From Vicugna vicugna (lineage: Eukaryota): a stretch of 64,000 nucleotides of DNA. The position numbers and the translations under genes were made by a program. The stretch is from assembly GCA_013265495.1 (NCBI GenBank), contig MU058213.1, forward strand, positions 4,984,854 through 5,048,853, written 5' to 3'. Below, one piece after another: positions 2,391-46,883 of this stretch. How positions within the stretch are numbered: position 1 is the stretch's first letter; each line of letters begins with the position of its first letter. The notes under the pieces were generated by a model. That model did no database searches. It was not told where the DNA came from and worked only from the letters and a program-made list of their open reading frames with translations.

Positions 2391-3065
2391 TCAACTGGCT
2401 TGTACAGCACCTCCCACCCCCATCACCCCTTGTGGGTCTTTGGAAGCGTGTGTGTTGGGTGGGGGTGCGTTTGGATTGTTATGAGGACTCGGGAATGCCA
2501 AAGCTACTACTGGACTGAAGCCAAACACCAAATGTCTTGCAGTGCCTGAAGGAGTGCCGCAAATGAAGAAAAGCCCCGCTCCCACTGCCATAAAGCCCAT
2601 TACGAAACGCCGATGGTCACTGAGGATCCTTCCAACTTTAACATTTGAGGGCTTCTAAGCCTTGGGCTGGGCGGGCCACGCCATAGGCCGGCGCTTCCCG
2701 TGCGCCGACCGGCACATTCCCCTAGCCTCACCACTGGGCAACTCATCACTCAGGTTTCCACTTACGTTTCACTTCTCAGAGATACCTTCTCTGTAGCCCA
2801 CATCCATCTTAAAATTGCATTGTTTTCCTCGGTAGGCTCCTTCAGGGCAGGGGCCGGGGCACTCACTACTTTCTGAATAAACACGTGAAGAGCGGATGCA
2901 CAGAAAAAAGACAGCTCGCAAGCGCGCCCGGCCGGCACGTGACGTCACCCCGAAACTCGCGTCCCCTCCCGCCCCTCTGGTCCCCACCTCCTCCCTGTCT
3001 GTGTTTGTTTCCGGCGTTTCAATAAAGCTCGATTCGGCTAGAAGAAGACCTGTCCTTCCGGGAAA

Positions 3066-3293
3066 ATGGCGGCTCCCGCTCGTGCCCCGGAGGCCCCGCC
3101 GGCCGCGGATCCGGCGCCAGCAGCGGGGGCTGCCGAGGACGCCGAGTGCCCGCCGCCTCGCCAGCCTCAGCCCCCGCAGAATGTCCTCGCTGCCCCGCGG
3201 CTTCGAGCCCCAAGCTCCCGAGGACTTGGGGCAGCGGAGTTTGGCGGAGCTGCGGGAGATGTTGAGGCGCCAGGAGAGACTTTCGCGCAACGT
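3066..3293 (+). CDS. POLR2M: Alternative-frame overlapping ORF of POLR2M, part 1 (GRINL1A isoform 4/5-type protein; [12 protein letters not shown]...GETFAQR, 76 codons)
   Basis: ATG 3066 in strong Kozak (AAAATGG); 228 nt open to the exon 1 donor at 3293; closely resembles the recalled human alternative-frame GRINL1A protein (MATPARAPESPP...GETFAQR). Confidence 0.75.
3181..3293 (+). CDS. POLR2M: Gdown1 (DNA-directed RNA polymerase II subunit GRINL1A), coding exon 1
   Basis: ATG 3181, [37 protein letters not shown] matches the Gdown1 N-terminus; donor GT|GTAAGC with intron starting at 3294 (phase 2). Confidence 0.96.
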
Positions 3294-4429
3294 GTAAGCG
3301 TGGGTCCCGCGAGTCACCGCCGGGCTCCTTGGGTTCGGGCTCCCCGGGACGCGTCCTCCCTTCCTCCCCTCCCACCTTACGCCCCCCACCTCACCCCTAA
3401 CCCCGTTCTCTTACCTGGAAGGTGACCTTGCTTCAGGCGGGTCCGCTCCAGGCGCGCGGGCCAGCGGCCGGCCTGCAGCCGCAGAGCCGACCCCTTCCGG
3501 CCGGACACCGACCACCTGCGGGATGGCTTCCGTGCTGACCAGCTGCGGAGCATTTCAGCTCGTCAGCTCCTCGTGGTTTTACTTATTCAGCTCCTGTGTC
3601 GGTTTTCTGAAGGGAAGATCTGTATCCCAAATTCTTTTGTGCCCCCCTCCCCCCGCAGTCGTGCCCCAAACATCTTGTCAATTTCATTTCTAGACCCTAT
3701 TTTTACAGAAACCTAGGACATGGGAAGAGTGGGATAAAAGAGGGGTTTATTAGGCAAAGAAAGTTTGACTCACACTCAGCTGGTGGACTTCACGGATTTT
3801 ACCGGGGGATCGATATAATGAAAATGATTTTTCAGGAAGCTTATTTTAGCAGGTTGGTGCAGGATAGTTGGAAGGGAAAAGAGGCAGAAGACGGTAGGAG
3901 GATATTTTCAGAGATGTTCCCAACAAGGGGATTTTTAAAAAGTGAACTAGAAGGGTGGTTGTGGGATTGGGAAAACTGCATCAGGTGTGGACTAATTTGA
4001 ACATGTAGTTGAGAGACGGCTGAAGTTTCTAGACCGCGTGGAGCACCACTAATAAAAATAGGAAGGCTGGGGGAGGGGAATAGGTCCCAGGTTGACTTCA
4101 CTTAGGCGAACTGATTTGATGGGAGAGTTAATTATTATCTAGTTAAAAGCTGGAGAAGTGATCCCGAGGCTCAAGAGAGAAGAGAAGGCTGGGAATATAC
4201 ACGCATCTCAGTTGGAGAGGGAGAGTAATAGTTGAAATTGGGGAAATGATTGTAGTGTCAGAAAGAATAGAAAGCCTGAGATGGAACCTTCCCTATTTAT
4301 TGTGTAGTTAAAGAAAAGAAAATCAGAAAAGGAACTTCTATCACTCAGACAAAAGGGCAAATCATCATTTGGGGGCTTCCTGGTAGAGCCAGCTGTTTTG
4401 CCTTTGTGAGAATGGGTTTTTGATCTGTA

Positions 4430-4783
4430 GGCGTTAGTTAACTTTTGGTCTCAGGACTCCTTTTACTCTTAAGATTTAATTGAGCATCCCAAAGAGCTCT
4501 TGTCTTATGTGTGTTTTATCTACTGATGTTTATCATTGTCTTAGGAATTACAAGTGAGAATCTTTAAAACAAAAGATTACCCAAGTACATACTTTCTGTT
4601 AGCCATCAGAGCAGTGATGTTGTTATATAACGTGTAGCTTCTGGAAAACTTCTCTGTACTCCTGTAAGAAAATAAGAAATGGCAAATAATGTCTTAGTTT
4701 TGTTATAAAAATAGTTTTGACCTTGCAGATCCCTCCATTCCCCTCCCCAGGAAAGCCTTTGAGATCACACTTTTAAAACTGCT
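4430..4783 (-). mobile_element. hAT-Charlie MITE (MER102-like) in intron 1
   Basis: AACTTTTGGTCTCAGGACTCCTTTTACTCTTAA...GTAGCTTCTGGAAAACT...AAAATAGTTTTGACCTTGCAG matches the recalled MER102-type consensus in reverse. Confidence 0.65.
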
Positions 4784-5054
4784 GATTTTTGGAATGTCAT
4801 ATATGTTTAAAATACTTTTGTTGAAATTCTAATTAGATGAGACAGATGAGGCCTATTCCCTATTTTTCCTGCAGCCCCTTGTATTTTGAGGGGTATTTGG
4901 ATAATGATTCTGTTGTTTTATTTCTCTTTTGGGGTACTTGGAAATCACATTTTTGACTGTTTCCTCTCCCTTTGAGAATTATGCTTTGTCTTGATATCTC
5001 AAGTTTAAAAACATGGCTCTCTCTTATGTATACATGTTCTTTTCCTTTTGCCAG

Positions 5055-5087
5055 AAAATTCATTTGCAAATTGCCCGACAAAGGTAA
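5055..5087 (+). CDS. POLR2M: Alternative-frame overlapping ORF of POLR2M, part 2 ([14 protein letters not shown])
   Basis: Splicing 3293 to 5055 continues the 3066 frame: AAA ATT CAT TTG CAA ATT GCC CGA CAA AGG TAA, giving 86 aa in total; the same C-terminal decapeptide is recalled for the human isoform. Confidence 0.72.
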
Positions 5088-5702
5088 AAAGATCTTAGAC
5101 TCTGTCGCCAAACTGAAAGCTGCCATTACAGAGCGTGAAGAAATTCAAGGAAGAAGTGGACTCTTGCATCCCGTTAGTTTAGACTGTAAACAGAGGCAGA
5201 AGGCAGTTGCATTTGTTGATGTGGACACAGAAAAGGCCCAGAACTCTGACCAGATACTTGATACTTCATCACTAGTTCCTGGCTGTTCCTCTGTAGCTAA
5301 CGTCACGCCATCTCAGACAACCTCACGACAGCAGGAACCTGTCCATCCTCCCCGCAGAGGCAATGCAGAGGCCCCCGAGGTTGAGTTCACGGTGAGCAAG
5401 TGCCCAGCTTCGGGCAGCAGAGCTACCACACCTCCCTCGGCCGAAGCTCGTGCGCCTCTCCCTCAGCATCGTGTTGCTGGTCAAGCGGAGGATAGTTCTA
5501 GCAGCTCTGACAACCAGTTTATTGATAGATTACAAAGGATCACGATTGCAGACTCAAGTGAACACCGCTCAGAAGAAAACACGAGTACTGAGAACTTGAC
5601 TGGCCTTCAGAGCGAGCCACAGAGGAAGCCTCATTACATGGAAGTGCTAGAAATTCGAGCCAAAAACCCCCTGCCCCCACCACATAAATTTAAAACCAAT
5701 GT
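5055..5702 (+). CDS. POLR2M: Gdown1 coding exon 2
   Basis: Acceptor TTCTTTTCCTTTTGCCAG (AG 5053-5054); encodes [13 protein letters not shown]...[12 protein letters not shown]...KPHYMEVLE...KFKTN; donor GT|GTAAGT with intron starting at 5703; 648 nt, phase 2/2. Confidence 0.97.
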
Positions 5703-7049
5703 GTAAGTACATCGGCCACAGAAGCATACTACTTGTTAAACTCTGGACCATGTGTGAGAACTGCCTGCGGTTAGCAATGAGCAGATTGTGGAAACTCTAG
5801 CCTGGCTGGAGCAGAGGGGTCATGTTGAGAAATGCTGTAGTTTTTTAGCCAAATAATTGAAAAACTTTTAAATAGCAGCTAGAGTATTAAATTTCAGGAT
5901 ACTTGGGCGATATTTCATATTAAACAGAGAATTTATTCTGATTTTTTCCCAGAACCATTTTCTGCTATATTGCTCCCCCTTTGATGAGAATTTCAGCTAA
6001 GGGGAAAACGGTTGCAGGAGCTGATGGACTTTCTCAGCAAAAAATATTTGTGTGTACGCTGTACGTGGGCAGCTGGTGCCGTGGCGACACAGAAGTAAAG
6101 ATTCTGCTCCTCATAGAGTTTAGGACCTAGATGAGGACCCAAGTCTTACATAGCTGGAAGAACATTAAACTGTATAATCATTTTAGGGGGAGGGAGCTGA
6201 GAAGGGGTTAAAAACCTGAAAACATCTGGGCCGGGACTGGGCTGGGGGTAGGAAATTAACCCTGCTTCTAAGTTCTGAGTCATAGTTTTATTTCTGACAT
6301 ATTCAGGAAAACAAAAGCTATCCGAAGAGAAAAGAGAAATGCAAATAGAACACCCAAGTGAGGGAGTAGATTTACAAAAATGTAACACCAGATACAAGTC
6401 TAACCACTGTGCCTTTCTTTGAAAAATGAAAGTCTACAGTTAAAAATACCTAAAACCAATTTTTATTCTTATAGAGACTTTCAAGTTTAATTCTCTTACC
6501 ATTATTTTTTTAATCTCAAAATTATTTCTCCCACATAGAAAATGAGGATTATATTACATTAATTTTTGGTTAGGAATAAAAGGGAATCTTTAAGTAATGG
6601 CTTGTGTGTAGTGAGGTATCTTTCCTTACTTCTAGGTAGACCAAAAGCCAGAATCATCATCTAGTCAACACATAAAACAGAAAATACTGACCCCAGTTCT
6701 GTGTTGTGGTCTTTTAGCTGGGAGTGGGAGGAGGTAAAGGAATGCCAGTGAGGGTTAGCAAGGGAAGGTCTACAAGAGACAGACAGACACTTGGGTGCAG
6801 TTATCGGTAAAGCCTGGGCCTTGATGGGTCGGTAGGCCTTGGACAAATGGAGGTTGGAGGGTGGGATGCGGTGGTGTCCTTTGGCTCCTTTTCGGCTCTT
6901 CCTTTGGCCTCTCCTACATGCTCTTCTAGATGCAGGAAGCTGCCCCTCGTCTACTTCTAGCCTGGTCTTCCCAGAACTTCAGATTTGCACGTCCAGTTCC
7001 CTGTGAAGCCTGACCATGCGGGGCTGTTCTGTGGCACCTTAGGCCTATC

Positions 7050-7716: not shown

Positions 7717-8033
7717 AAAAAATAAAAACAGGTTTCAGTTCAAGTATAAGCTTTGAAGAGAGAAGGGAAAGACTCCTACTTGTTAGAACAACGAAATGTC
7801 AAATTACTCTCCAAAAACGTGCCAGTTGCAGTAGTTCTGTTTTTGAGGTAAATATGTTAGAAAAAGGACCAAGTTTTATCTACACAGGTAAATAGTGGTA
7901 CAGTGCTTACTGTCACCTTTGTAGAAGAATTAACTGCTCAGGTTACAGGCCACTTTCGTGTGTGCGAATGTTGCGAAGGTGTCTGTGTAAGGAAACCAGT
8001 CTGATGGTGTGACGGAAGTTTTCCCCCCTCCAG

Positions 8034-8238
8034 GTTACCTTCACAGCAGCACGACTGGTCGAGTCACTGTCAGAGGCGAGGGTCTCCTGTTTGCTCAGAG
8101 GAGAGGCGGCTCAGGGACAGGAAGCACCTTGATGACATCACAGCAGCCCGGCTCCTGCCGCTCCACCATCTGCCTGCACAGCTGCTCTCCATAGAGGAGT
8201 CTCTGGCACTTCAGAAACAGCAGAAACAGAGCTATGAG
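8034..8238 (+). CDS. POLR2M: Gdown1 coding exon 3
   Basis: Acceptor TTTTCCCCCCTCCAG (AG 8032-8033); encodes [68 protein letters not shown]; donor GAG|GTATTT; 205 nt. Confidence 0.97.
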
Positions 8239-10019
8239 GTATTTAGAGGATTGGTTGTGTCTTGTCTGCATGTCAGATGCGGCTTACATGAGTCCGAACT
8301 TATTCCTGGAGGTTCAGGGAGAGCAGGGTTTAGTAGACTGCACGAGGTGCTAGAGATGTGGGCATCTGTGCATGCCATGAGCTCTCAGATGTGTGCCTCT
8401 AGCTTGCAGTCTTGAGGATGCTGGCACTGTAGGAAACGGTCCAGCTGCCTGTGACACCAAAGTGGTGTTTGCTGGGAAATGTGCAGAGACCACTGTGAAA
8501 TTTCATGGCTCTGAAAAGCCAGACCGTCAGGTAGCAGTAGCATCGCTTTTTGGTCTTCCACCTTGAGAAACCTGCGTGAGAACGTGTCAGTGGTGACGTT
8601 TAACCTGGAACCCTGCTAAGAGTCAGGGCAGTGTGGTTTCCAGGCTCCAGTCTCCTGTGGTACCGAGGAGACCATGAGATGGGTGGGAAGTGGTGTGTTG
8701 TCAACAGACAGCTGGACACTAAGCTTAACAGCAAATCTGCGGGCCCTTGTGAAGACAGAAGAATCTCTTACTTTCGTTCACTGAATCAGTTTTGGAGCGT
8801 TTTCTTCACGATCTGTGTGTTCTGCATAGAACTTTAAATGTGTAAGTTGACAGTTTGTGTACAGGGTAATGGGATGACAGAAGGTAAGTGAGGACCACTG
8901 AGAGAAAAGAAAGGGTCTGATTTTCTTAGGCAGCGATCATTTGAGCCTCCAGGAAAACAGCTGCCAGACCTAATGCTGCTTGGCTAGGCTTTAATCGGGT
9001 ACTGTAAACACCAGTGAATGCAGACCTAGCTTGTTATTCTGCCTGGGCTTTTCATAGAAGCCCAGGTAGCACGGATGGGCATTTTTAAGGCCTTCCTTTT
9101 TAAAAGCCATTTTTCTTCCTCTCAGTGCATTGAAGTTATTGCCTAGTTGTCACTGAGCCTGGAGGAATTGTTTTTTAAATTGTCTATGTGGCCTTCAGTG
9201 TCTGTCCTGAGATATTCGTAGGCTGAATTAAACCCTTCAGTTTGAAATTGGTTTCCCTGGCAGAGTGGTAGTGGTAGCAGCAGCTCCCACTTCAGTCCCA
9301 CCTACCCACACTGCCCGTGGCCCGAGGGCAGGGACAGGAACAAGCTCAGGTGGTCTGGGGGCAGCATGGGCAAGGCGAGGAGCCGGGTCAGGAATGAGCA
9401 CCGCCACCCGCCATCAGCTGGTGACGATGTCCTTGGGTGTATATACGCACATTGCCAGTGTCTGAAACTTAACTGAACTTTTGACTGCATGGTAATATTC
9501 ATGGGAGTTAACTTGAAGAGTGACAATCAGTTTTTAGTGTTAATTCTTTGATTTTCATTGTGGTGTCGAAATGTACCTCTCAGGCCTAGAAGCCATGATT
9601 TAATCCAGGGAGAAAGATTCTTCCCCTTGGAGAATCAGTATAGCATTGGTGATTTTTGACATTTGACAGTTGAAATTGTTCTGTAAGTTTGTACATACAG
9701 ATCAGGTGCCCACATACTTGAAAATGTGTCTGTATTTATAACCATTGAAGTGCCAAGCTGATGACTCAGTTTCTCCTGTAGAGGTGGGATGTTTCGGTGC
9801 ACATTGTTTATGGCTGCAAGTCTGTCACCACCGCCACAGCAGGCTCGTAGCTCTCCCCAGCCTTGCCCTGTGGTGTCTGTGGTGGGCGCAGTGCTGTAGA
9901 GAGCGCCCAGTAGAGCAGAAAGCCCCTTTAATTCGAGTCTGTTCCAGTGACTTCCCATTGAAAAATTGTAGGGATAAGATGCGCATGTGTAACTTTCTGC
10001 TTTGCTTTCTGTTTTAAAG

Positions 10020-10166
10020 GAGATGCAAGCCAAGCTGGCAGCACAAAAATTAGCTGAAAGACTGAATATTAAAATGCAGAGCTATAATCCAGAAGGAGAA
10101 TCTTCTAGGAAATACCGAGAAGTAAGGGATGAGGGTGACGATCGGTCCTCGGATGATGAATTCTGA
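10020..10166 (+). CDS. POLR2M: Gdown1 coding exon 4 (terminal)
   Basis: Acceptor TTTCTGTTTTAAAG (AG 10018-10019); [51 protein letters not shown] at 10164-10166; spliced CDS 1113 nt = 370 aa. Confidence 0.97.
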
Positions 10167-46786: not shown

Positions 46787-46883
46787 TCTCTCTCTCTCTT
46801 TTGTAAATGGAGGCACTGGGGATTGAACCCAGGACCTTGTGCACGCTAAGCACACGCCCTACCACTGAGCTATACCCTCCCCC
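46787..46883 (-). mobile_element. tRNA-Ala(AGC)-derived SINE (camelid Vic-1 type) with (AG)n tail
   Basis: Minus strand GGGGGAGGGTATAGCTCAGTGGTAGGGCGTGTGCTTAGCGTGCACAAGGTCCTGGGTTCAATCCCCAGTGCCTCCA; A box TAGCTCAGTGG and B box GGTTCAATCC intact. Confidence 0.88.

What the first reader, a model, noticed from the sequence alone, without database searches (positions are those of the whole stretch)
3066..5087. Dual-coding POLR2M: an 86-aa overlapping ORF appears more constrained than Gdown1 in exon 1
Seen in sequence: ATG 3066 (AAAATGG, strong Kozak) lies 115 nt upstream of and out of frame with the Gdown1 ATG. It stays open through exon 1, uses the same splice sites and ends [13 protein letters not shown] at 5087. 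Recalled knowledge, to be verified: human GRINL1A has an annotated but essentially uncharacterised alternative-frame protein, MATPARAP...[38 protein letters not shown]...[10 protein letters not shown]. Against the recalled human sequences, the 38 overlapping exon 1 codons differ at 6 residues in Gdown1 (C2S, A17G, V22A, K29R, L36S, E38V) but at only 1 residue (N to D) in the alternative frame. All six Gdown1 changes can be explained by codon position 2 substitutions, which are the wobble positions of the alternative frame. Inference: purifying selection acts mainly on the hidden microprotein, making the mRNA functionally bicistronic.
Basis: partly seen in the sequence, partly recalled or inferred. 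Interest (0 to 1): 0.85.

Follow-up and report, generated by a model that had tools for sequence, protein, structure and literature searches.

The report
Known dual-coding first exon of POLR2M
The alpaca POLR2M gene carries a second, out-of-frame 86-codon reading frame over its start, the counterpart of the human small protein Gdown3, and mammals have conserved that hidden frame better than the overlapping start of the main protein.

Summary
The window is the alpaca (Vicugna pacos) POLR2M/GRINL1A locus. The ORF geometry is as described: ATG 3066 in AAAATGG, 115 nt upstream of and out of frame with the Gdown1 ATG 3181, same splice sites, TAA at 5085-5087, 86 codons.

An open frame here is not remarkable (P about 0.33). 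Its conservation is.
- Human versus alpaca: 6 Gdown1 changes, all at codon position 2, against 1 change in the other frame.
- Across 94 mammalian Gdown1 sequences, 119 of 166 replacements (72%) in codons 2-38 are silent in the alternative frame, against 32% in a control region (p=2e-23).
- In seven matched lineages, Gdown1 differs from alpaca at 43 residues and the alternative frame at 13.

Gdown1 is also constrained: changes that alter both frames are rarest, and some columns never vary.

The feature is already known. The human orthologue is deposited as Gdown3 / 'Alternative protein GRINL1A'. It has been detected by mass spectrometry and ribosome profiling.

Only the cross-mammal asymmetry of selection appears to be unreported. 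Codon positions were inferred from proteins, not from DNA alignments. Alpaca transcripts and translation were not tested.

The parts
3039..3041 (+). In-frame TAG upstream of the alternative ORF; ATG 3066 is the first ATG after it
3060..3070 (+). Start context of the alternative ORF, GGGAAAATGGC (A at -3, G at +4); the ATG is at 3066-3068 and is the first ATG from at least 2950
3066..3180 (+). Non-overlapping N-terminal part of the alternative ORF (codons 1-38 plus the first base of codon 39), Ala/Pro-rich. It is moderately conserved, with length changes of whole codons (35, 36, 38, 40 or 45 residues in 46 sequences)
3181..3183 (+). Gdown1 (POLR2M) start codon, context CGCAGAATGTC (A at -3, T at +4); second ATG of the leader
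3180..3293 (+). Dual-coding stretch in exon 1: alternative-frame codons 39-76 over Gdown1 codons 1-37 plus 2 nt. Gdown1 codon position 2 is the wobble position of the alternative frame
3294..3299 (+). Splice donor GTAAGC of intron 1, used by both frames
   Evidence: junction confirmed by P0019
5036..5054 (+). Pyrimidine tract and AG acceptor of intron 1
5055..5087 (+). Exon-2 part of the alternative [13 protein letters not shown] plus TAA (5085-5087), overlapping Gdown1 residues 38-49
5055..5703 (+). POLR2M exon 2 in the Gdown1 frame (residues 38-254, the first base of the exon completing codon 38). Residues 51-250 served as the control region
8020..8313 (+). Approximate further POLR2M coding exon (tblastn match to P0019 residues 250-348; borders not refined)
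10020..10163 (+). Last POLR2M coding exon (tblastn, P0019 residues 323-370, 100% identity)

Best explanation
Exon 1 and the first 33 nt of exon 2 of alpaca POLR2M encode two proteins in two frames.

How it most likely works:
- The first AUG of the mRNA (3066, strong context) opens an 86-codon upstream overlapping ORF. This is the orthologue of human Gdown3 / 'Alternative protein GRINL1A'.
- The second AUG (3181, weaker +4 base, no AUG in between) opens Gdown1.
- Scanning ribosomes should initiate mostly at the first AUG and make the small protein. Ribosomes that leak past it make Gdown1. Re-initiation is impossible because the small ORF ends inside the Gdown1 coding sequence.
- The small ORF is therefore both a product and an unavoidable brake on Gdown1 synthesis.

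What is shown:
- The geometry.
- Orthology to the human protein.
- Purifying selection across placental mammals on the amino-acid sequence of the alternative frame in the overlap.
- Weaker, patchy selection on the Gdown1 N-terminus.

What is taken from papers, for human cells only: the product is translated and accumulates.

What is inferred: leaky scanning, the brake on Gdown1, and any action of the peptide in trans. The peptide is predicted to be disordered apart from a basic C-terminal helix.
For: Geometry.

Orthology:
- The exon-1 part P0001 is 88% identical to human P0189, in the same position and with the same splice.
- P0189 is named 'GRINL1A downstream protein Gdown3' and 'Alternative protein GRINL1A' by its sources.

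Selection on the alternative frame:
- In 94 distinct full-length Gdown1 sequences, there are 166 parsimony replacements in codons 2-38. Of these, 123 are at position 2 only, 36 at position 1 only and 4 at position 3 only.
- 119 of the 166 (72%) are silent in the alternative frame. In the control (residues 51-250), 612 of 1909 (32%) are silent in the same shifted frame. No 37-codon control window exceeds 38%. Fisher odds ratio 5.4, p=2e-23.
- Mouse, with both proteins from the same species: 8 inferred base differences from alpaca, all at Gdown1 position 2.
- Eight-lineage tree: 5, 20 and 5 changes at Gdown1 positions 1, 2 and 3 (chi-square p=5.5e-4).
- Seven matched comparisons: 13 residue differences in the alternative frame against 43 in Gdown1.
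- 51 alternative-frame sequences give only 14 distinct overlap peptides.
- Conservation gradient: overlap 94%, N-terminal half 76%, intron read-through 53% mean identity.

Spliced forms that include the upstream ATG occur in 9 of 51 sequences.

Human translation, from papers:
- HeLa peptides [24 protein letters not shown] and IHLQIAR on NM_015532, AltORF nt 25-283, RefORF nt 140-1244.
- riboHMM dual-coding example with 4 peptides in the alternative CDS and none in the annotated one.
- Peptides from a POLR2M upstream overlapping ORF.
- Gdown3 detected in SH-SY5Y and A549 cells.
Against: - No DNA of other species could be fetched. Codon positions are inferred by minimum change from the alpaca codons.
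- In 6 of the 7 matched comparisons the two proteins come from different species of one genus or family. Four of these 6 show 1-2 incompatible codons.
- The alternative-frame sequences are ORF calls found because they resemble the query, so lineages with a broken frame would be missed. 5 of 51 lack the MA[AT]P start.
- 'More constrained than Gdown1' is marginal per available mutation (7 of 78 against 19 of 94, p=0.054).
- The N-terminal half of the small protein is only moderately conserved.
- In Microtus the TAA is absent and the ORF runs to 129 aa.
- No relative was found outside placental-type sequences.
- No Pfam family, no Atlas look-alike, low-confidence fold.
- Nothing was tested for alpaca RNA or translation, and the position of the transcription start relative to 3066 in alpaca is unknown.
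Confidence: 0.78

Rival explanations
1. Conserved-peptide upstream ORF acting only in cis. The amino-acid sequence is selected because the nascent chain stalls or tunes the ribosome and so sets Gdown1 translation. The released peptide has no function of its own.
For: The upstream overlapping geometry forces competition with the Gdown1 AUG. Peptide-level conservation is what defines such ORFs. Related overlapping ORFs (oPIDD1, oSFRP4) repress their main ORFs in reporter assays.
Against: Conservation covers at least 38 residues plus the tail rather than a short arrest motif. The product is detected by mass spectrometry in several human cell types, so it accumulates. No stalling data were seen in any paper read.
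Confidence: 0.13
2. The selected product is not the 86-aa protein but longer isoforms that start at the same ATG in the same frame. Examples are human Q6EEV4 'isoforms 4/5' (148 aa) and a form that joins the alternative-frame N-terminus to the Gdown1 C-terminal region.
For: P0180 (Q6EEV4, 148 aa) and great-ape relatives share residues 1-76 and the [10 protein letters not shown] end. P0152 (228 aa, MetaClust) joins alternative-frame residues 1-69 to the Gdown1 frame.
Against: In alpaca the frame reading on into intron 1 stops at 3423-3425. Intron read-through translations are only 53% identical on average. The P0152 junction has no GT at the exon-1 side in alpaca (read by eye). Spliced 83- to 86-aa forms (96 aa in one variant) occur in several lineages.
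Confidence: 0.06
3. There is no second coding frame. The conservation comes from nucleotide-level elements (promoter-proximal sequence, CpG island, RNA structure, splicing signals) and the ORF is open by chance.
For: A 76-codon open frame has P about 0.33 at this composition, and all six frames are open locally. CpG observed/expected is 0.94.
Against: A three-base periodicity, with variation concentrated at one codon position and matching the degeneracy of the alternative frame, is not expected from non-coding elements. At two-fold codons of that frame I count 28 silent and 4 non-silent position-2 changes, by hand from the table. On the eight-lineage tree the positions show 5, 20 and 5 changes. 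Human peptides exist.
Confidence: 0.03

Closest known systems
Human Gdown3 / 'Alternative protein GRINL1A' (GenBank AAQ82540.1, UniRef L0R6H6; P0189, 86 aa)
   Same: Same gene, same upstream ATG 115 nt before the Gdown1 ATG (human NM_015532: AltORF nt 25-283, RefORF nt 140-1244). Same frame, same splice and same 86-aa length. 88% identity over the exon-1 part, and the exon-2 part reads [10 protein letters not shown] in both.
   Different: Eight substitutions in the N-terminal half and D65N in the overlap. Translation is shown only for human.
Human Q6EEV4 'DNA-directed RNA polymerase II subunit GRINL1A, isoforms 4/5' (P0180, 148 aa)
   Same: Same start, same frame, same first 76 residues and the same [10 protein letters not shown] end.
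   Different: It carries a 62-residue extension of exon 1 read from what is intron in the 86-aa form. In alpaca that extension is closed by a stop at 3423-3425.
Other mammalian out-of-frame upstream overlapping ORFs with detected products (oSCRIB, alt-RPL36, oPIDD1/altPIDD1, POLGARF)
   Same: An ORF that starts in the leader, overlaps the main coding sequence out of frame, is translated beside it, and is expected to lower main-ORF translation.
   Different: POLGARF starts at CUG (abstract). Several others grew by C-terminal extension in mammals, a trend the authors did not see for Gdown3.
Classical dual-coding loci such as INK4a/ARF and GNAS XLas/ALEX (recalled, not checked here)
   Same: Two proteins read from one exon in two frames, with asymmetric constraint.
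   Different: Those use different promoters or first exons, or much longer overlaps. Here one leader and two AUGs 115 nt apart suffice.

Membership tests
Upstream overlapping ORF (uoORF) / dual-coding mRNA | AUG upstream of the main AUG, out of frame with it, with its stop inside the main coding sequence | tested here: met
   ATG 3066 against 3181 (115 nt apart); TAA 5085-5087 lies within Gdown1 codons 48-49
Upstream overlapping ORF (uoORF) / dual-coding mRNA | Both AUGs lie on the same mature transcript (transcription start upstream of the first AUG) | tested here: inconclusive
   Not tested for alpaca. Elsewhere, 9 of 51 alternative-frame sequences are spliced forms that contain the ATG, and in human NM_015532 the ORF starts at nt 25.
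Upstream overlapping ORF (uoORF) / dual-coding mRNA | Translation of the upstream frame | not testable with these tools
   Known only from human papers: peptides in HeLa and lymphoblastoid lines, an unspecified shotgun data set, and SH-SY5Y and A549 cells
Upstream overlapping ORF (uoORF) / dual-coding mRNA | Frame-specific purifying selection in the overlap | tested here: met
   72% against 32% of Gdown1 replacements are silent in the shifted frame, p=2e-23. Changes at positions 1, 2 and 3 are 5, 20 and 5. 13 against 43 residue differences. Codon positions were inferred from proteins, not from DNA alignments.
Orthologue of human Gdown3 | Sequence similarity with the same genomic position, frame and exon junction | tested here: met
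   88% identity to P0189 over the 76 residues of exon 1, the same exon-2 tail, and the locus identified as POLR2M by a 100% match to alpaca protein GRINL1A
Conserved-peptide uORF acting through the nascent chain | Peptide sequence conserved | tested here: met
   14 distinct overlap peptides in 51 sequences; 28 of 38 overlap columns invariant in 17 sequences
Conserved-peptide uORF acting through the nascent chain | Sequence-dependent ribosome stalling that controls the main ORF | not testable with these tools
   No data in the window or in the papers read
Any Pfam protein family, for the small protein | Match to a curated profile | tested here: not met
   0 families at E up to 1 for P0189, P0001 and P0180. 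Gdown1 itself matches PF15328.

The most novel reading that the evidence does not exclude
Gdown3 is a trans-acting small protein conserved across placental mammals. Its sequence has been held more tightly than the Pol II-binding N-terminus of Gdown1 that it overlaps. On this reading, roughly the first 22 residues of Gdown1 evolve largely as a by-product of the other frame, and the two products of one mRNA are functionally coupled, for example in controlling how much Pol II carries Gdown1.
Probability: 0.35. Interest if true: 0.55.

Novelty: already known. Interest (0 to 1): 0.32.

Why it matters
Gdown1 controls whether RNA polymerase II depends on Mediator and is kept at low levels relative to the polymerase. 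This is established knowledge; the one paper read here calls it a Pol II interactor held mainly in the cytoplasm.

A first AUG in strong context that opens a different, conserved protein means two things:
- Gdown1 dosage is probably set partly by leaky scanning.
- Mutations, knock-outs or N-terminal tags placed in POLR2M exon 1 hit two proteins at once. One of them has no known function, yet it has been conserved across placental mammals.

The asymmetry of selection measured here gives a reason to test the small protein itself. It also warns that missense predictions for the first 38 Gdown1 codons should be read in both frames.

Tried and rejected
- DNA of other mammals. A scan of metagenome contigs with the alternative-frame alignment matched 106 stretches, none confirmed. 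I did not use the second scan because the same conserved peptides had already failed. The genome collections hold prokaryotes only. No true dN/dS or PhyloCSF could therefore be run; parsimony on proteins with the alpaca codons was used instead.
- RNA evidence in alpaca. Runs were found (20 of 24 listed rows hold part of the stretch, 4 of these on record as RNA, with shares of 0.47-0.48). The lay was not carried out, so nothing can be said about the transcription start, splicing or expression in alpaca. The shares of unlaid runs are not evidence.
- More distant relatives. A profile search of 1.84 billion representatives gave 10 hits, all seen before. This is weak evidence, because the library holds ORF calls only.
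- Fold and family of the small protein. No Pfam family. AlphaFold2 gave mean pLDDT 67 and pTM 0.21, with only a helix at residues 73-85. The best ESM Atlas score was 0.79, below the tool's lead threshold. No fold search was run on so weak a model.
- Earlier notes of this scan: none.
- Supplements. Those of PMC5570006 could not be read. For PMC5703645, 12 of 22 files were searched, with no POLR2M or GRINL1A.
- An ORF that is simply open by chance was considered and rejected as the whole explanation.
- First version of the count. 54 sequences, selected with a narrower pattern, gave the same direction: 87, 30 and 1 changes at positions 2, 1 and 3, p=5e-8. It was replaced by the 94-sequence set.
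Full report
WHAT IS THERE

The window is the alpaca POLR2M (GRINL1A, Gdown1) locus. The exon-2 translation is 100% identical to 'protein GRINL1A [Vicugna pacos]' (P0019). P0019 matches the window at 3181-3294, 5056-5703, about 8020-8313 and 10020-10163.

- ATG 3066 sits in GGGAAAATGGC.
- It is the first ATG from at least position 2950 and follows an in-frame TAG at 3039.
- The next ATG is the Gdown1 start at 3181, in CGCAGAATGTC.
- The 3066 frame gives 76 codons to the exon end at 3293 (donor GTAAGC). After the acceptor at 5054 it reads [10 protein letters not shown] and TAA at 5085-5087.
- Because 3181-3066 = 115, Gdown1 codon position 2 is the third position of the alternative frame, and Gdown1 position 3 is its first.

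IS IT MORE THAN CHANCE?

The open frame alone is not. At 74% G+C, a 76-codon frame stays open with probability about 0.33, and all six frames are open for more than 100 codons here. The case rests on conservation.

The human 86-aa protein (P0189) was retrieved as a cluster member. Its sources name it 'GRINL1A downstream protein Gdown3' and 'Alternative protein GRINL1A'.
- In the 38 overlapping exon-1 codons it differs from alpaca only at D65N.
- Human-type Gdown1 was read from PDB chain 28jc_M. It differs from alpaca at S2C, G17A, A22V, R29K, S35L and V38E.
- With the alpaca codons, each is a single change at position 2.
- The 6-to-1 count is therefore right. 'L36S' should read residue 35.

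ACROSS MAMMALS, GDOWN1 SIDE

No DNA of other species could be fetched, so I worked from proteins.

Method:
- The search found 173 proteins and listed the best 120. From these and the cluster members, I kept the 94 distinct sequences of at least 300 residues that start with M and have the KF[IT][CWY][KR]L[PF] motif at residue 39. All others were dropped as truncated or alternatively started.
- A FastTree tree was built from the columns after residue 50.
- Replacements were counted by Fitch parsimony.
- Each replacement was assigned to codon positions by minimum change from the alpaca codon.

| Region | Events | Per codon | Position 2 only | Position 1 only | Position 3 only | More than one position | Silent in the alternative (shifted) frame |
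|---|---|---|---|---|---|---|---|
| Codons 2-38 | 166 | 4.5 | 123 | 36 | 4 | 3 | 119 (72%) |
| Control, residues 51-250 | 1909 | 9.5 | 727 | 769 | 138 | 275 | 612 (32%) |

- Sliding 37-codon control windows gave 28-38% silent, and a position-2 share (position 2 over positions 1 plus 2) of 0.43-0.54. The overlap gave 0.77.
- Fisher tests: odds ratio 3.6, p=1.7e-12 for position; odds ratio 5.4, p=2e-23 for silence.
- The changes are often chemically radical (Q/P/R/L, L/S/W, M/T/R). That is what free variation of a middle base produces.
- At two-fold codons of the alternative frame I count 28 silent and 4 non-silent position-2 changes, by hand from the per-column table.
- In the exon-2 part of the overlap (codons 39-48), 11 of 13 events are silent in the other frame.
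- An earlier run on 54 sequences gave the same direction.

ACROSS MAMMALS, ALTERNATIVE-FRAME SIDE

Two searches with the exon-1 peptide found 16 and 19 proteins, and cluster members added more.
- 51 sequences carry the APGETFAQR anchor. They give only 14 distinct 38-residue overlap peptides.
- 46 of the 51 have the MA[AT]P start. The distance from that start to the overlap is 35, 36, 38, 40 or 45 residues, so the length changes are whole codons.
- 5 of the 51 lack that start.
- 9 of the 51 are spliced forms with the exon-2 tail, so mature RNAs that contain the upstream ATG exist in several lineages.
- Named members include Mus musculus, Microtus ochrogaster, Dipodomys, Saimiri, great apes, a bat and a pangolin.
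- A profile search of 1.84 billion representatives found 10 proteins, none new and none outside this group.

MATCHED COMPARISON

For seven lineages, both proteins are available from the same species or a close one. I derived the minimum-change DNA compatible with both frames.
- Mouse (same species): 8 base differences from alpaca, all at Gdown1 position 2. The alternative frame differs at 1 of 38 residues and Gdown1 at 8 of 38.
- Over the seven lineages, the alternative frame differs at 1, 5, 1, 3, 1, 0 and 2 residues. Gdown1 differs at 8, 7, 5, 3, 5, 8 and 7. The sums are 13 and 43. The alternative frame is the lower one in 6 comparisons, with 1 tie (sign test p=0.031). All comparisons share alpaca, so they are not independent.
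- Four comparisons between different species showed 1-2 incompatible codons.
- On a fixed eight-lineage tree, the changes at positions 1, 2 and 3 number 5, 20 and 5 (chi-square p=5.5e-4; position 2 against 3, p=0.004).

| Class of change (eight-lineage tree) | Observed | Possible mutations |
|---|---|---|
| Silent in the alternative frame, replacing in Gdown1 | 19 | 94 |
| Replacing in the alternative frame, silent in Gdown1 | 7 | 78 |
| Replacing in both | 4 | 159 |

- The first two classes differ at p=0.054. The third is lower than either, at p=4e-6 and p=0.044.

Reading: both frames are under purifying selection, and the alternative frame about twice as strongly.

IS GDOWN1 UNCONSTRAINED HERE? 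NO.

- E23, L24 and Q31 show no change in 94 sequences, although any position-2 change there would be silent in the other frame. S2, Q11, Q18 and R25 show 11-16 changes.
- The replacement rate is half that of the exon-2 control.
- The Pfam model for Gdown1 starts at residue 27.
- A recent preprint assigns the Gdown1 N-terminus to an RPB10-binding domain (passages only).

THE SMALL PROTEIN ITSELF

- Mean pairwise identity among 26 read-through sequences (325 pairs) is 94% in the overlap, 76% in the non-overlapping N-terminal half and 53% in the translated intron. The conserved core is residues 39-86.
- No Pfam family and no useful Atlas look-alike (best score 0.79).
- AlphaFold2 on six sequences gives pLDDT 67, pTM 0.21 and one helix at residues 73-85. 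This suggests a disordered Ala/Gly/Pro-rich chain with a basic C-terminal helix.

WHAT IS KNOWN

- PMC3741303 (search listing and rows of supplementary files 1 and 4). GRINL1A, NM_015532, AltORF nt 25-283, RefORF nt 140-1244.
- PMC4940163 (passages and the Figure 3 legend; the figure itself was not seen). POLR2M is the illustrated example of a dual-coding region. All four distinct peptides that map uniquely to the gene match the inferred alternative-frame CDS, and no spectra match the annotated CDS. The paper ran genome-wide dN/dS tests, but the text I saw does not say how POLR2M scored.
- PMC5570006 (one passage; supplement unreadable). Peptides from an upstream overlapping ORF in POLR2M.
- bioRxiv 10.1101/2025.07.27.667088 (abstract, passages, section 8; Table 1 is an image and the supplements are closed). 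'Gdown3' is listed as a previously reported product of an overlapping ORF of POLR2M variants 1/2. It was detected in SH-SY5Y and A549 cells, and it shows no C-terminal extension trend.
- The original description of the Gdown transcripts (Roginski and colleagues, 2004) is recalled, not seen.
- Searches found no paper in the held library that reports frame-specific selection for this gene or any function for the small protein.

MECHANISM

Shown:
- Two AUGs 115 nt apart with none between them.
- The first has the stronger context.
- The first ORF ends inside the second.
- The peptide sequence of the first frame is under selection.

Inferred from the scanning model of initiation (established knowledge):
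- Most ribosomes start at 3066.
- Gdown1 depends on leaky scanning, or on transcripts that start downstream of 3066.
- Re-initiation cannot contribute.

Open:
- Whether the peptide acts in trans or only as a nascent chain.
- Whether the longer primate isoforms matter.

VERDICT

The feature is already known. The cross-mammal asymmetry of constraint is a modest addition, and it still needs real codon alignments.

Noticed in passing
window 46808-46879 (-): A tRNA-Ala (anticodon AGC) gene or tRNA-derived element: Rfam tRNA 53.4 bits, and ARAGORN agrees.
   Followed up: partly
window 3294-3425 (+): The alternative frame reads on into intron 1 for 43 codons and stops at 3423-3425. In human, Q6EEV4 (148 aa) uses a 62-residue extension of this kind before the [10 protein letters not shown] tail. 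That isoform cannot be made in the same way in alpaca.
   Followed up: partly
P0018 (Microtus ochrogaster) and P0155 (unnamed): The alternative ORF lacks the TAA after ...ARQR. It runs on to 129 aa in the vole, and in P0155 it passes into the Gdown1 frame (406 aa), which looks like a retrocopy or a model with a frame shift.
   Followed up: no
P0017, P0185, P0192 (unnamed, same 90% cluster as human P0189): Variant N-terminus: an ATG further upstream in a third frame runs into the alternative frame, which implies a frame shift within the non-overlapping half. 59 contigs carry P0017.
   Followed up: no
P0152 (MetaClust, 228 aa); maps to window 3147-3314, 5572-5703 and 8020 onward: A protein that joins alternative-frame residues 1-69 to the C-terminal part of Gdown1 in its own frame, using a junction inside exon 1 and inside exon 2. 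It may be a rare isoform or a cDNA artefact.
   Followed up: partly
window 2936-2947, 3009-3014, 3056-3061 (+): CACGTG overlapping a palindromic TGACGTCA lies about 120 nt upstream of the first ATG. Two TTCCGG motifs follow, the second ending 5 nt before that ATG. The motif names (E-box, CRE, ETS) are recalled. The site is probably the core promoter, so some transcripts could start close to or beyond 3066.
   Followed up: no
P0156, P0157 (Heterocephalus glaber 'GRINL1B'): Predicted proteins of a paralogous copy read the alternative frame and then switch to the Gdown1 frame. This looks like gene models drawn through a retrocopy.
   Followed up: no
window 3259-3261 (+): A third ATG, in frame with Gdown1 (Met27). 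Many unnamed ORF calls of Gdown1 start there. It could serve as a further leaky-scanning start.
   Followed up: no
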